Below, in pieces: positions 1,248-16,317 of a stretch of 29,702 bases of DNA. Location: the NCBI GenBank assembly GCA_043750125.1, contig JAYVCD010000453.1:1-29702 (forward strand). The letters run 5' to 3'. Source of the DNA: Archangiaceae bacterium (lineage in GTDB: Bacteria > Myxococcota > Myxococcia > Myxococcales > Myxococcaceae). Both the position numbers and the translations under genes were made by a program. How positions within the stretch are numbered: the stretch's first letter is position 1; the number at the start of each line of letters is the position of its first letter. The notes under the pieces were generated by a model. It was not told the DNA's origin. It was given only the letters and a program-made list of their open reading frames with translations, and did not search any database.

Positions 1248-1413
1248 TGAAGGGGAAGGGGTTTGCCCTGGGCAGGGATTGTGCGTGATTGACGCAACCC
1301 ACGCGCTTCGCTGCTTCGGCCCTTGAGACGCGAACAGCCCGACCGCTGGCGAGTTCGTTGGAGACTCTGGCATCCTGTCGGGCCGGCCTGGTCTTCGCCG
1401 GGCAGGAGTCGTG

Positions 1414-2078
1414 ATGCGCTGGACCTGGTCGCCGATCGCCGCCGTTCTGCTGCTCACCGCGTGCGGGGGCGAGATCTCGTCCGCCGGCAGCGGGGGCGGC
1501 AGCGGAGTCGGAGGCGGCAGCGGAGTCGGAGGTGGCAGCGGAGTCGGAGGTGGCAGCGGAGTCGGCGGCGGAGCGGCGTCGGTGGCGGGAGCGGGAGCGG
1601 AATCGGCGGCGGCAGCGGAGTCGGCGGTGGCGGCGCGATCAACGAGCTCCTCGCCGCTCACAACGCCGTGCGCGCAGCGGCGATGCCGGCCCCCAGCCCT
1701 CAACTGATGACCAGGAGCTGGAACAGTTCTGCGGCAGGCGTCGCGCAGACCTGGGCGAACAACTGCGTCTACATGCACAACGCAGGACGCGGCAGCCTGG
1801 GAGAAAACATCTTTGCGGCAACCGGGGGCAGTTGGACCCCGACCCAGGTCGTCAATTCCTGGGCGAGCGAAAACGTGGACTACACCTACTCCACCAACAC
1901 CTGCGCAGCGGGCAAAGTGTGCGGCCACTACACCCAGATTGTCTGGCGCTCGTCGATTGGATTGGGCTGCGGCTCGAAGACCTGTACGACCGGCAGTCCC
2001 TTCGGCTCCGGCACCTGGTTGTTCTGGGTCTGCGACTACAGTCCTCCGGGCAACTCCGTCGGAATGAAGCCGTACTGA
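1414..2078 (+). pseudogene. CAP/SCP (PR-1-like) domain lipoprotein with Gly-Ser linker, frameshifted by one missing base at about 1571
   Basis: AGGAG RBS, then MRWTWSPIAAVLLLTAC (lipobox) and (SGVGGG)n in one frame. The CAP domain (LLAAHNAVR, GENIF, CGHYTQIVW, WVCDYSPPGN) is in another frame ending TGA 2076-2078. The junction falls in a 17-nt repeat unit among 18-nt units. May be an assembly error. Confidence 0.8.
1501..1631 (+). repeat. Coding tandem repeat, 18-bp unit AGCGGAGTCGG(A/C)GG(C/T)GGC encoding SGVGGG
   Basis: Units start at 1501, 1519, 1537, 1555 (17 nt), 1572, 1596 and 1614, with a 6-nt partial unit at 1590. Confidence 0.9.
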
Positions 2079-2285
2079 GCACGCAGCAGTCTGCGTGGAT
2101 CCGGCGGGGCAGGCGTCGTCGTCGGTCAGCGCCACGACCGCACTTGTTGTTTTTCCTCGAATCGCCGTGCGCGGACTTCACGGGAAATGCCACCCGAGGC
2201 ACGCCGCCGAGCGCTCGATTTCGAAGCGCCGGCCAGATGTCGGTTGGGGCTCGACCCTGCTGCTGAGAGCACCCGGTTGGCTGCC

Positions 2286-2719
2286 TCGTAGAGATTCGGC
2301 CCTACGTGCGCGCAGGGGGGCCATCGGCAGCAGCGGTTCTCGCGGCCCATGGGCATTGGCGGGAAGTGCTGTTCGTTCAGCACGCCTTGCTCGCGGGTTG
2401 CGTTCGCTTTCTGGGACAAAGGCACCCCGTCGCCGAACAGTGCAGGCCGACGGGTGGTTTGGTGAAGGCATTCGCCTTTCGTGGGGTGAACCGGTGAGAA
2501 CCACCCCCGGTGGTGAGCGCTACCCGCGTGGCTCGACGGCAAACCACACCGCTGGGGGTAGTTCTCACCAGAACGACGCAGAAAGGGCCCTGCAGAAGCG
2601 AACGCAGCCCGTACGCACTGGGCTCGAGTCAAAGAACAGCTCTTCCCGCCAATGCCCGTGGGCCGTGGGAACCTCTGCTGCCGATATCCCCTGCGCGCAC
2701 GTGGCCCGGATCTCCACGA
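2286..2719 (+). ncRNA. Candidate large structured non-coding RNA or long nested inverted-repeat element of unknown family
   Basis: Arm 2286-2374 pairs with 2634-2719, and 2393-2413 with 2593-2612. Inner hairpins at 2423-2456, about 2457-2492 and 2493-2569. It lies between convergent genes and no credible ORF covers it. Confidence 0.6.
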
Positions 2720-2741
2720 TCAAGCCGTGGCTTCCCCACGC

Positions 2742-3413
2742 TCAGCCGGGAAACGCAGCGCAGAGCGGGCAGCGCGCGGCCAGGTGCGGTCCGTCGACGC
2801 GATGCAGATCGAGCAGCTTGCGCGAGTGCTCGGCCAGCGCGCGACGCAGCTCGCGGCGAGCGCCCTTCACCCGCGCCACCTGCATCGAGTCGTAGGCGGT
2901 GGTCGCGTGCCGCAGCCAGGCGATGACGGCCGCTTCAGCCCGGCGATCGATCTCGATTCGTTTGGTGCGCGCCACGGTGCCACTGCCCACGGGCGTGGCG
3001 TGCGCGGTGACCGCGTGGGCGAGCGCGGCTGCGAGAGCAGCGTGGGACGACGAGAAGCGAAGAAACGCCTGCACCTCGGCTTCGAAGTCCGTCACGTAGG
3101 TCGCCTGCGCCATCTCTCGTCGGCGCAGATCTCCCTCGCGCTTCTTCGCGTAGCTCTCGGTCGAACGCTCGGCCTCGAGGGCGGTCCGTGCCGCGGCGAT
3201 TTGCGCGGCCGCCACCCAGACACCCCGGGAGAATGTCTTGCGGCCCTTCTTCTCGACGACCGTCCAGCTGTCGCCGCCGGCCTTCACTCTTCGGGTCAGG
3301 CCCGCATCGCCCGGAGGCAGACATTCCCAGCCGGCCGGAATTTCCAGCACCCGACCATCGGGAGCCCGGACTCTTCGGGGATCTGCGGTGGGCGCGAAAG
3401 TCAGGGTCTGCAT
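2742..3413 (-). CDS. DUF2293-like conserved protein
   Basis: Likely start ATG at 3413 (MQTLTFAPT...). Motifs LPPGDAGLTRRVK, KGRKTFSRGVW and GSGTVART...AEAAVIAWLRHATTAYD are typical of this family as I recall it. Confidence 0.8.
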   Translation of the reverse strand: MQTLTFAPTADPRRVRAPDGRVLEIPAGWECLPPGDAGLTRRVKAGGDSWTVVEKKGRKTFSRGVWVAAAQIAAARTALEAERSTESYAKKREGDLRRREMAQATYVTDFEAEVQAFLRFSSSHAALAAALAHAVTAHATPVGSGTVARTKRIEIDRRAEAAVIAWLRHATTAYDSMQVARVKGARRELRRALAEHSRKLLDLHRVDGPHLAARCPLCAAFPG

Positions 3414-3644
3414 TTTGAGAGGATGAGCAAACAATCCAAGGCCGGGAACTTCGCTCGCCCCAGCCCAAAAGTCTTTCGCCGTCCGCATGTCAGTCGAGTG
3501 CACGACTGACACCTACCCATCCACGAACGGTCGGTGCGCGGCCCTGGGTGTCAGTGGTTTGTGACACCTGGCGCAGCGGCTGCTGGCGCTGGGCGGGCTT
3601 GGCTTCCCCGAACCTCTGGCCAACAAGCCGCAATGTCATCGGGG

Positions 3645-16166: not shown

Positions 16167-16317
16167 AGTCGAACCGTAGCGCGAGCGCGCGAGTGGCGAT
16201 GAGTGGTGAGGGCCACCCCCAGTGGTGCGGGATACGCCCGAAGGCCAGCAATTCCAGGTCCTTGCTTCGGCATCTCTTCAGGAGCAACAAGGTACGACTT
16301 CCACCGACAATCCTTCC

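What the first reader, a model, noticed from the sequence alone, without database searches (positions are those of the whole stretch)
2286..2719. About 435-nt intergenic element folding into an ~85-bp stem with a branched cap: candidate undescribed large structured RNA
Seen in sequence: 2286-2374 is an imperfect reverse complement of 2634-2719 (for example GGCCCATGGGCATTGGCGGGAAG with CTTCCCGCCAATGCCCGTGGGCC, and ACGTGCGCGCAGGGG with CCCCTGCGCGCACGT). Nested inside, 2393-2413 pairs with 2593-2612. That stem closes a junction with three hairpins: 2423-2456, about 2457-2492, and a 23-bp stem 2493-2515/2547-2569 whose loop is itself branched. By my manual count the three long stems contain about 10 G-U wobbles if the + strand folds, against 2 A-C mismatches that would be wobbles on the - strand. 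Inference: this asymmetry points to selection on a folded + strand single-stranded molecule, whereas a MITE's terminal repeats recognised as duplex DNA should diverge without strand bias. Further hairpins flank it (2080-2097, about 2205-2233). I recognise no RNase P, tmRNA, SRP, 6S, intron or riboswitch hallmarks, and no transposase or reverse transcriptase lies in the window. It could be a new ncRNA class, an RNase III substrate or sRNA precursor, or a non-autonomous element mobilised through ssDNA or RNA.
Basis: partly seen in the sequence, partly recalled or inferred. Interest (0 to 1): 0.82.

Follow-up and report, generated by a model that had tools for sequence, protein, structure and literature searches.

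The report
Nested palindromic intergenic repeat, not RNA gene
The 434-base hairpin-forming stretch is real, but it is one copy of a species-specific family of modular palindromic DNA repeats that come and go between genes, an ordinary kind of small mobile element rather than a new large RNA.

Summary
The palindrome at 2286-2719 is real (stems of 31, 50, 25 and 22 bp). It folds far better than shuffles on both strands, as RNA and as DNA (z -14.9, -14.1, -12.5). It is not unique. The central ~85-nt hairpin occurs at 16 loci of this 6.2-Mb metagenome-assembled genome, 4 of them at contig ends. The 15-nt frame GGGCATTGGCGGGAA occurs 17 times against 0 for a control pattern. One paralogue (C396) is 79% identical over 309 nt. 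Modules are combined differently from locus to locus. Two related units sit where congeners have only 57-95 nt between the same genes. The G-U strand bias does not hold: 10 G.T against 7 A.C here, and it is reversed in C396. There is no Rfam match and no promoter-like site, and orientation relative to neighbouring genes is mixed. Only the core hairpin shows compensatory changes, and only across genera. No RAYT, TnpB, IS110 or DDE_Tnp_1 gene was found, so the mobilising enzyme is unknown. Verdict: a new family of a known kind (MITE / REPIN / BIME-like). This scan has reported similar families in other Myxococcota genomes.

The parts
2286..2350 (.). Outer left arm of the palindrome
   Evidence: Pairs with 2659-2719 (83% over 64 nt; helices). 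blastn finds no other copy. The equivalent arm has one distant homologue at C135:21940-22056 (nhmmer E 5e-4).
2351..2365 (+). Left frame motif GGGCATTGGCGGGAA (TIR-like)
   Evidence: Exact inverted copy at 2643-2657. There are 17 copies with at most 1 mismatch in G000, against 0 for the reversed-pattern control.
2366..2413 (.). Inner left arm, including GCGTTCGCTT, the complement of the GAAGCGAACGC motif
   Evidence: 87.5% identical to the matching arm of C396 over 64 nt. Pairs with 2593-2642.
2416..2473 (.). Junction hairpins: a 16-bp hairpin at 2416-2463 and a 3-bp hairpin at 2464-2473. This is the most diverged part.
   Evidence: Fold. Poorly conserved between the window and C396 (alignment).
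2475..2586 (+). Core hairpin module. The family core is 2485-2575, with apical motif ACCnnCG-N5-CGACGG.
   Evidence: 16 loci in G000 (nhmmer). Covariance model R1 scores this copy at 100 bits. 94.3% of cells are paired across 14 copies. 12 of 23 pairs show compensatory change when copies from G054 and G001 are added.
2593..2642 (.). Inner right arm with GAAGCGAACGC (2595-2605)
   Evidence: The motif is shared with C396, C415, C232 and C135. B-type units carry the variant GAAGCGATTCC.
2643..2657 (-). Right frame motif (TTCCCGCCAATGCCC on the + strand)
2659..2719 (.). Outer right arm
1323..2078 (+). Left neighbour: CAP-domain gene, whose 3' end faces the element
   Evidence: PF00188, E 5.1e-17.
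2742..3512 (-). Right neighbour: DUF2293 gene, whose 3' end lies 23 nt from the palindrome
   Evidence: PF10056, E 9.6e-18.

Best explanation
Window 2286-2719 is the longest and best-preserved copy of a lineage-specific family of non-coding, modular palindromic repeats, of the MITE / REPIN / BIME kind. Each copy is built from reusable modules. These are an ~85-nt core hairpin, a pair of inverted arms framed by GGGCATTGGCGGGAA...TTCCCGCCAATGCCC, a GAAGCGAACGC motif, and variable outer sequence. Shown: the family is multi-copy, dispersed, strictly intergenic and amplified in this one species. Its modules are combined differently at different loci, and small hairpin repeats are nested inside larger units. 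Two related units occupy sites that are empty in congeners. Inferred: the units were spread in trans by an enzyme that recognises the conserved, sequence-invariant hairpin and frame. Copies are now only 75-85% alike, so most are probably ageing relics. The deep nesting here comes from inverted arms around a hairpin module, not from selection for an RNA shape. At this locus the element sits between two convergent genes. Read-through RNA from either side would fold into a long hairpin that could stop transcription or be cut by RNase III. That would be a by-product and is untested.
For: Copies: blastn and nhmmer find the core at 16 loci of G000, 4 of them within 160 nt of a contig end. C415, C232 and C434 share 90 identical bases at contig ends. 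C396:15286-15587 is 79% identical to the window over 309 nt. The frame motif (at most 1 mismatch) occurs 17 times in G000 against 0 for the control, and 2, 1, 0 and 4 times in the four congeners against controls of 0-2. Mosaic build: C59 and C396 share flanks and frame but have different interiors. B-type units of 450-640 nt carry the same core without long arms, and C325 and C119 have B flanks but no core. A second hairpin repeat of ~55 nt is present inside B units C43, C337, C325 and C119 but not C167, C416 or C231. Gain or loss: the flanks of the C59 unit are 698 nt apart in G000, 60 nt apart in G001, 89 nt in G003, and 28 nt at the paralogous site G000:C376. The flanks of the C43 unit are 655 nt apart in G000, 57 nt in G003 and 95 nt in G004. 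Distribution: model R1 hits 4 of 41 relatives (G000 and 3 of 4 congeners) and 4 of 39 genomes of the same family (G000, G004, G054, and G022 weakly). No family member was found among 11 genome contigs and 9 metagenome contigs pattern hits, nor in plasmids or phages. All 17 loci examined are intergenic by crude GC3-based gene calls. No neighbouring gene recurs within +-4 kb of 20 loci. The palindrome folds as well with DNA parameters (z -12.5) and on the - strand (z -14.1).
Against: No transposase that could move the family was found. Y1_Tnp is missing from G000 and all 4 congeners, and TnpB Zn-ribbon, IS110 DEDD and DDE_Tnp_1 are missing from G000. No IS-sized pair of the frame motif exists in G000. 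The genome is only 89% complete in 460 contigs, and repeats and insertion sequences are often lost from such bins. No direct repeat of 8 nt or more flanks the window copy. The only candidate target duplication is a 12-of-13-nt repeat at C59, a single case. The window's own locus gave no empty site, because the gene next to DUF2293 differs in G000, G001 and G004. Three of the five loci tested for empty sites were uninformative. The element is G+C-rich (65%), unlike typical AT-rich MITEs (PMC10969869, section 2.1). The core hairpin keeps its pairing through compensatory changes across genera (12 of 23 pairs) and has an orientation-specific apical motif, so some function of the hairpin itself is not excluded.
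Confidence: 0.7

Rival explanations
1. A family of transcribed structured non-coding RNAs. Each copy would be an RNA gene or an RNA-processing substrate whose long hairpins are selected in RNA.
For: Very stable fold (z -14.9). This copy has more G-U on the + strand (14 against 9). The core hairpin is 94.3% paired in 14 copies and shows compensatory changes in 12 of 23 pairs across genera. The apical motif is orientation-specific.
Against: The strand bias is reversed in C396 and absent across the 14 cores. The outer stems show no excess of kept pairs: against C396, 14 are kept and 27 broken. Within G000, only 2 of 24 core pairs co-vary, and both mark the A/B subfamily split. No promoter-like site was found and no Rfam match. 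Sense relative to neighbouring genes is 2 same and 2 opposite in tandem settings. The distribution is species-specific and orthologous sites are empty. The - strand and DNA fold equally well.
Confidence: 0.12
2. A DNA-level functional site. The conserved, largely invariant hairpin and frame would be bound or cut by a host protein, as with BIMEs bound by IHF or gyrase, or hairpin repeats recognised by a single-strand nuclease. The repeats would then be kept for chromosome or transformation biology.
For: The stems are conserved in sequence rather than co-varying within G000: 9 of 24 pairs never vary. The inner motif CCACTGGTG...CACCAGTGG persists in congeners and in another genus. G004 holds a tandem array of four 129-nt units, each with this hairpin.
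Against: No associated gene was found. Two small GIY-YIG genes of G000 and four of congeners have no R1 hit within about 1.5 kb, and the two G000 loci have no blastn similarity to the family. No neighbouring gene recurs. Copy number is low, and copies are 75-85% alike.
Confidence: 0.1
3. A palindrome that grew in place by inverted duplication, through template switching at the core hairpin, without any transposition of the 434-nt unit as a whole.
For: blastn finds the outer arms (2286-2350 / 2659-2719) nowhere else. The locus is a synteny breakpoint.
Against: The frame and inner arms are shared arm-for-arm with C396: left with left at 87.5%, left with right at 76.6%. The inverted structure therefore predates the two copies. 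The outer arm has a distant homologue at C135 (E 5e-4).
Confidence: 0.05

Closest known systems
Prokaryotic MITEs (for example Correia/NEMIS, ERIC, RUP, QMITE; review PMC10969869, sections 2.1 and 3.3 and passages read)
   Same: Non-coding, under about 500 bp, with inverted terminal arms. Multi-copy, intergenic, and forming very stable stem-loops. Present or absent between relatives. Elements insert into one another, as reported for BOX/RUP/SPRITE.
   Different: G+C-rich (65%) rather than AT-rich. No clear target-site duplication. No parent insertion sequence with matching ends was found. The arms (about 130 nt) are much longer than typical TIRs of 4-30 bp.
REPINs / REP doublets with RAYT transposases (PMC3337134, PMC3116915, PMC2817692: abstract starts seen in the search listing only)
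   Same: Two inverted copies of a repeat unit, separated by a spacer, fold into one long hairpin. Solo arms also occur. The family is confined to a lineage.
   Different: No Y1 (RAYT) gene in G000 or any of the 4 congeners. The units are 85-130 nt, not 20-40 nt. No invariant GTAG or CGTC tag. About 16 copies rather than hundreds.
BIMEs of enterobacteria and BOX elements of pneumococcus (modular mosaic repeats; named from the listing, passages of PMC10969869, and recall)
   Same: Modules (core, frame, GAAGCGAACGC motif, flanks) are combined in different ways at different loci. One congener holds a tandem array.
   Different: Unrelated sequences and much longer stems. No known binding protein.
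Ssn nuclease-associated hairpin repeats (NTS/SRM; PMC11893778, abstract and one section read)
   Same: Dispersed hairpin-forming repeats with a conserved sequence.
   Different: No hairpin copy lies next to the small GIY-YIG genes tested. The SRM consensus itself was not compared.

Membership tests
MITE | Short (typically under 500 bp) and non-coding | tested here: met
   434 nt. No ORF with a coding GC3 signature overlaps it or any of the 17 loci. The gene calls are crude.
MITE | Terminal inverted repeats | tested here: met
   Arms 2286-2374 / 2634-2719, with exact 15-nt frames at 2351-2365 / 2643-2657.
MITE | Flanking target-site duplication | tested here: inconclusive
   No direct repeat of 8 nt or more at the window copy. 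One 12-of-13-nt repeat flanks the C59 insert. The review notes that such repeats decay with age.
MITE | Multiple dispersed copies, with presence or absence at orthologous sites | tested here: met
   16 core loci. Empty sites at 2 of 5 related loci tested, with the other 3 uninformative. The window's own locus could not be tested.
MITE | A related autonomous IS with the same ends | tested here: not met
   No IS-sized pair of the frame motif. No Y1_Tnp, TnpB, IS110 or DDE_Tnp_1 hit in G000. The genome is 89% complete, so absence is not proven.
REP / REPIN-RAYT | A RAYT (Y1 transposase) gene in the genome | tested here: not met
   PF01797 hits 0 of 5 genomes of the genus, while the control rings in 6 of 14 named genomes.
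REP / REPIN-RAYT | 20-40-nt palindromes with a GTAG or CGTC tag, in high copy number | tested here: not met
   The core is about 85 nt. GTAG is present in only some copies and is internal (alignment A1). There are 16 loci.
Rfam structured RNA families | A match at the gathering score | tested here: not met
   The best hit is mir-2040 at 23.7 bits against a gathering score of 51. Ten further loci gave nothing at gathering score.
Structured ncRNA (generic) | Compensatory changes, a consistent strand, and its own promoter | tested here: inconclusive
   Compensatory change is seen only in the core and only across genera. Strand bias is inconsistent. No promoter-like site was found. No RNA data were available.
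Retron msr-msd | An adjacent reverse transcriptase | tested here: not met
   RVT_1 hits lie on C167 (6 kb from a B unit), C19 and C90, and none is next to a copy. None is in the window.
Ssn/SRM repeats | Repeats flank a small GIY-YIG ssnA gene | tested here: not met
   No R1 hit at 6 GIY-YIG loci. The two G000 loci have no blastn similarity to the family.
Intrinsic terminator | A G+C-rich hairpin followed by a T run | tested here: not met
   The only terminator-like site in 1900-3000 is at 2123-2140, outside the element.

The most novel reading that the evidence does not exclude
The ~85-nt core hairpin is not just decaying selfish DNA. It would be the recognition module of an undescribed hairpin-specific system: a single-strand DNA transposase or nuclease of a family other than Y1, TnpB or IS110, or a processed RNA. 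It keeps its pairing by compensatory change across at least two genera, carries an orientation-specific apical motif (ACCnnCG-N5-CGACGG), and is reused as a cargo or landing pad inside at least two different repeat frames.
Probability: 0.1. Interest if true: 0.6.

Novelty: new member of a known kind. Interest (0 to 1): 0.22.

Why it matters
It removes a false lead. A striking 434-nt fold with z about -15 is a property of palindromic repeat DNA, not evidence for a new large RNA. It also shows that the G-U against A-C strand test can mislead when applied to a single copy. It adds one more undescribed family of modular hairpin repeats in an uncultured sediment bacterium (probably Myxococcota, not verified) with no recognisable transposase. 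That is a small data point on the open question of how such repeats move where RAYTs are absent. Repeats of this kind also break metagenome assemblies: 4 of 16 copies lie at contig ends.

Tried and rejected
- **RNA expression.** The look-up of sequencing runs listed 5 DNA metagenome holders and no RNA holder, so expression could not be examined.
- **Empty site at the window locus.** The DUF2293 orthologues in G001 and G004 are followed after 6 and about 146 nt by unrelated convergent ORFs. The CAP orthologues lie on other contigs. G001's neighbouring gene has its homologues on G000 contigs C207 and C384. The locus is a synteny break and gives no verdict.
- **Empty-site tests at C267a, C416 and C396.** Flanks were not syntenic or were split over contigs.
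- **Collection scans with a degenerate core pattern.** There were 11 hits in genome contigs and 9 in metagenome contigs. None scored like a family member: the best reached 23.6 and 17.7 bits, against 55 bits or more for G000 copies.
- **Plasmid and phage blastn.** No match.
- **Retron idea.** Rejected, because no RT lies next to any copy.
- **Integron attC idea.** Rejected on reading: copies are dispersed, in both orientations, and I recognised no R'/R'' core sites. That consensus is recalled, not tested.
- **Ssn/GIY-YIG link.** No association was found.
- **Frame motif with 3 mismatches.** Too noisy to use: 443 hits against 197 in the reversed genome.
- **Solo arms.** blastn-short for partner arms of solo frame motifs found only the core hairpins.
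- **Taxonomy.** The protein atlas gave Myxococcota or Planctomycetota for DUF2293 clusters, so the phylum stays unverified.
- **Literature.** Searches for MITE or REP/RAYT together with Myxococcus found no description of this family. That is three searches of the held library only.
- **Earlier notes on this genome.** None.

Full report
**1. The observation**

The sequence at 2286-2719 is a large nested palindrome. The repeat finder gives arms at 2310-2377/2631-2698 (68 nt, 84% complementary), 2304-2318/2688-2702 (15 nt, 100%), 2394-2409/2596-2611 (16 nt, 94%) and 2474-2515/2547-2588 (42 nt, 71%). The minimum-energy fold of the + strand has these helices:

| Helix | Pairs |
|---|---|
| 2286-2319 / 2687-2719 | 31 |
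| 2323-2374 / 2634-2685 | 50 |
| 2384-2410 / 2595-2623 | 25 |
| 2416-2434 / 2445-2463 | 16 |
| 2475-2487 / 2573-2586 | 11 |
| 2493-2515 / 2547-2569 | 22 |

As RNA the + strand folds at -297.5 kcal/mol, against a shuffle mean of -194.9 (sd 6.9), giving z -14.9. None of 100 shuffles folds as well. The - strand does nearly as well (-281.8, z -14.1). So does the + strand with DNA parameters (-162.5, z -12.5). The stability is therefore a property of the palindrome and does not point to RNA.

The element lies between two convergent genes: a CAP-domain gene (1323-2078 +) and a DUF2293 gene (2742-3512 -). None of 19 window ORFs scanned against Pfam is a transposase or reverse transcriptase.

Contigs from four metagenome runs of one study carry the sequence without a single difference. 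Two span 1536-3600. Two cover 1810-2564 and resume at 2705. This rules out a chimera private to one assembly. No contig joins across the element.

**2. It is a repeat**

The window is contig C453 of a genome of 6.17 Mb in 460 contigs, 89% complete and 65% G+C.

- **Core hairpin.** blastn and an nhmmer profile find the central ~85-nt hairpin at 16 loci. Four of them lie within 160 nt of a contig end. Three contig ends (C415, C232, C434) share 90 identical bases, as expected for a repeat that breaks assembly.
- **Closest paralogue.** C396:15286-15587 is 79% identical to window 2351-2658 over 309 nt.
- **Frame motif.** GGGCATTGGCGGGAA, with at most one mismatch, occurs 17 times in this genome and 0 times for the reversed control pattern. 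The four congeners have 2, 1, 0 and 4 matches, against controls of 0-2.
- **Rfam.** It has nothing at gathering score for the window element or for ten other loci.

**3. The family is modular**

A-type copies have this layout: frame arm, spacer, core hairpin, GAAGCGAACGC, spacer, frame arm.

- C59 and C396 share about 170 nt of flank on each side and the frame, but their interiors differ entirely. C59 has an AT-richer hairpin and no core.
- Five B-type units of 450-640 nt (C231, C167, C416, C337, C43) carry the same core in a conserved setting that is not palindromic. C325 and C119 have B flanks without the core.
- A second small hairpin repeat of ~55 nt, with at least 12 further short hits in the genome, sits inside B units C43, C337, C325 and C119 but not C167, C416 or C231. 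Small hairpins therefore nest inside larger units.
- blastn finds the window's outer arms nowhere else. A two-arm profile finds a distant homologue at C135:21940-22056 (E 5e-4).
- The window's left arm is closer to the matching arm of C396 (87.5%) than to C396's other arm (76.6%) or to its own partner (78.7%). The inverted structure is therefore older than these two copies.

**4. Gain and loss**

For the C59 unit, the two flanking genes are 698 nt apart in G000. They are 60 nt apart in G001:C610 and 89 nt apart in G003:C1137. At a paralogous gene pair in the same genome (C376) they are 28 nt apart. The insert, about C59:17403-18010, begins right after a stop codon and is bounded by GCAGAAGGGTTGA and GCAGAAGGGTGA. 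That is a single case, so it is only a hint of a target duplication.

For the B unit at C43, the flanks are 655 nt apart in G000, 57 nt apart in G003:C1013 and 95 nt apart in G004:C7.

Three other loci (C267a, C416, C396) were uninformative. No tested locus showed the element conserved at an orthologous site in a congener. The window's own locus cannot be tested, because the gene next to DUF2293 differs in G000, G001 and G004.

**5. Distribution**

A covariance model of the core (R1, built from 14 copies) hits 4 of 41 relatives: G000 and 3 of its 4 congeners, the latter at 27-37 bits. It hits 0 of 36 genomes of other genera, though that search used stricter filters.

A second search of 39 genomes of the same family hits G000, G004, G054 and, weakly, G022. 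G054 belongs to another genus and has two loci at 52 and 47.6 bits. G022 scores 25 bits.

Pattern scans of genome contigs (11 hits) and metagenome contigs (9 hits) gave no family member. Plasmid and phage collections gave no match.

G004 holds a tandem array of four 129-nt units, each with the inner hairpin CCACTGGTGA...TCACCACTGG.

**6. The RNA argument**

- **This copy.** The fold has 14 G-U on + and 9 on -. Counting every opposed position gives 6 G.T against 4 A.C in the arms and 4 against 3 in the core. The total is 10 against 7, which is not a significant bias.
- **C396.** In the same orientation it has 1 G.T against 8 A.C. It folds 24 kcal/mol better on the other strand.
- **All cores.** Among 14 core hairpins, the antisense strand folds better in 10.
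- **Pair conservation.** On the window's own fold, the comparison with C396 covers 121 pairs. Of these, 78 are unchanged, 14 are changed but kept (7 on one side, 7 on both), 27 are changed and broken (20 and 7), and 2 fall in gaps.
- **Covariation within G000.** The core is 94.3% paired, but only 2 of 24 pairs changed on both sides, and both mark the A/B split.
- **Covariation across genera.** Adding the G054 and G001 copies raises this to 12 of 23 pairs. The hairpin as such is maintained across genera. That fits an ssDNA or RNA hairpin, a symmetric protein site, or arm-to-arm correction in palindromes, and does not single out RNA.
- **Promoter and orientation.** No sigma-70-like promoter was found in 1900-3000. 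In tandem gene settings the core is in the same sense twice and the opposite sense twice.
- **Gene context.** Of 12 loci with both neighbours called, 5 are convergent (all A-type), 5 tandem and 2 divergent (crude gene calls).

**7. Who moves it**

This is unknown.

- Y1_Tnp (RAYT / IS200) was not found in G000 or any of the 4 congeners.
- TnpB Zn-ribbon, IS110 DEDD and DDE_Tnp_1 were not found in G000.
- RVT_1 hits are not next to any copy.
- No IS-sized pair of the frame motif exists.
- No neighbouring gene recurs around 20 loci.

The bin is incomplete, so these absences are weak evidence.

**8. Comparison with known kinds, and verdict**

The element meets the MITE criteria of size, non-coding nature, inverted arms, stable stem-loops, dispersed copies and nesting (PMC10969869, sections 2.1 and 3.3 read). 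It lacks a clear target duplication, an AT-rich composition and a parent IS.

It resembles REPIN doublets and BIME or BOX mosaics in architecture. It fails the REP/RAYT tests on three counts: no RAYT, units of 85-130 nt, and about 16 copies. The REP, REPIN and BIME definitions were taken from abstract starts in the listing.

I file it as a new family of a known kind, with the mechanism of spread inferred and not shown. Earlier notes of this scan describe similar long modular palindromic repeats in other uncultured Myxococcota genomes. I did not check those notes.

Noticed in passing
window 16203-16236: A solo 5' half of the core hairpin (GGTGAGGGCCACCCCCAGTGGTGCGGGATAC) lies in the gap just before, and running a few bases into, the predicted start of the ACTMAP-like ORF at 16222-17109. 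It is a truncated second copy within the same window (nhmmer E 9e-4).
   Followed up: partly
L039 1489-1967 (G004:C40): A tandem array of four ~129-nt units, each with the inner hairpin CCACTGGTGA..CGAAAG..TCACCACTGG, preceded by an AT-rich stretch. This is a different arrangement of the same hairpin motif in a congener.
   Followed up: partly
G000:C43:9658-9714 (L034 about 859-915): A second small hairpin repeat of ~55 nt (GTGACCTTGGCCC..GGGAAGGACAAGGTCGC) has at least 12 more short hits across G000 contigs. It is inserted in some B units and not in others.
   Followed up: partly
G000:C167:6339-7062: The B unit here is partly duplicated head to tail with a period of about 580 nt. C231 shows the same pattern.
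   Followed up: no
L037 about 309-475 (G000:C396:14166-14332): Another repeated stretch of ~100-160 nt has hits on many G000 contigs and in all four congeners. Its nature was not examined.
   Followed up: no
window 1485-1635: An internal repetitive stretch of the CAP-domain gene matches several offsets in a G004 locus and attracts many short metagenome contigs. It is probably a low-complexity linker.
   Followed up: no
window 2742-3512 and its relatives: The gene downstream of DUF2293 differs in G000, G001 and G004, so the element sits at a synteny breakpoint.
   Followed up: partly
G000:C167:12626-13267: A reverse-transcriptase gene (RVT_1, 127 bits, open frame 404 aa) lies 6 kb from a B-type unit. 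No link between the two was seen.
   Followed up: no
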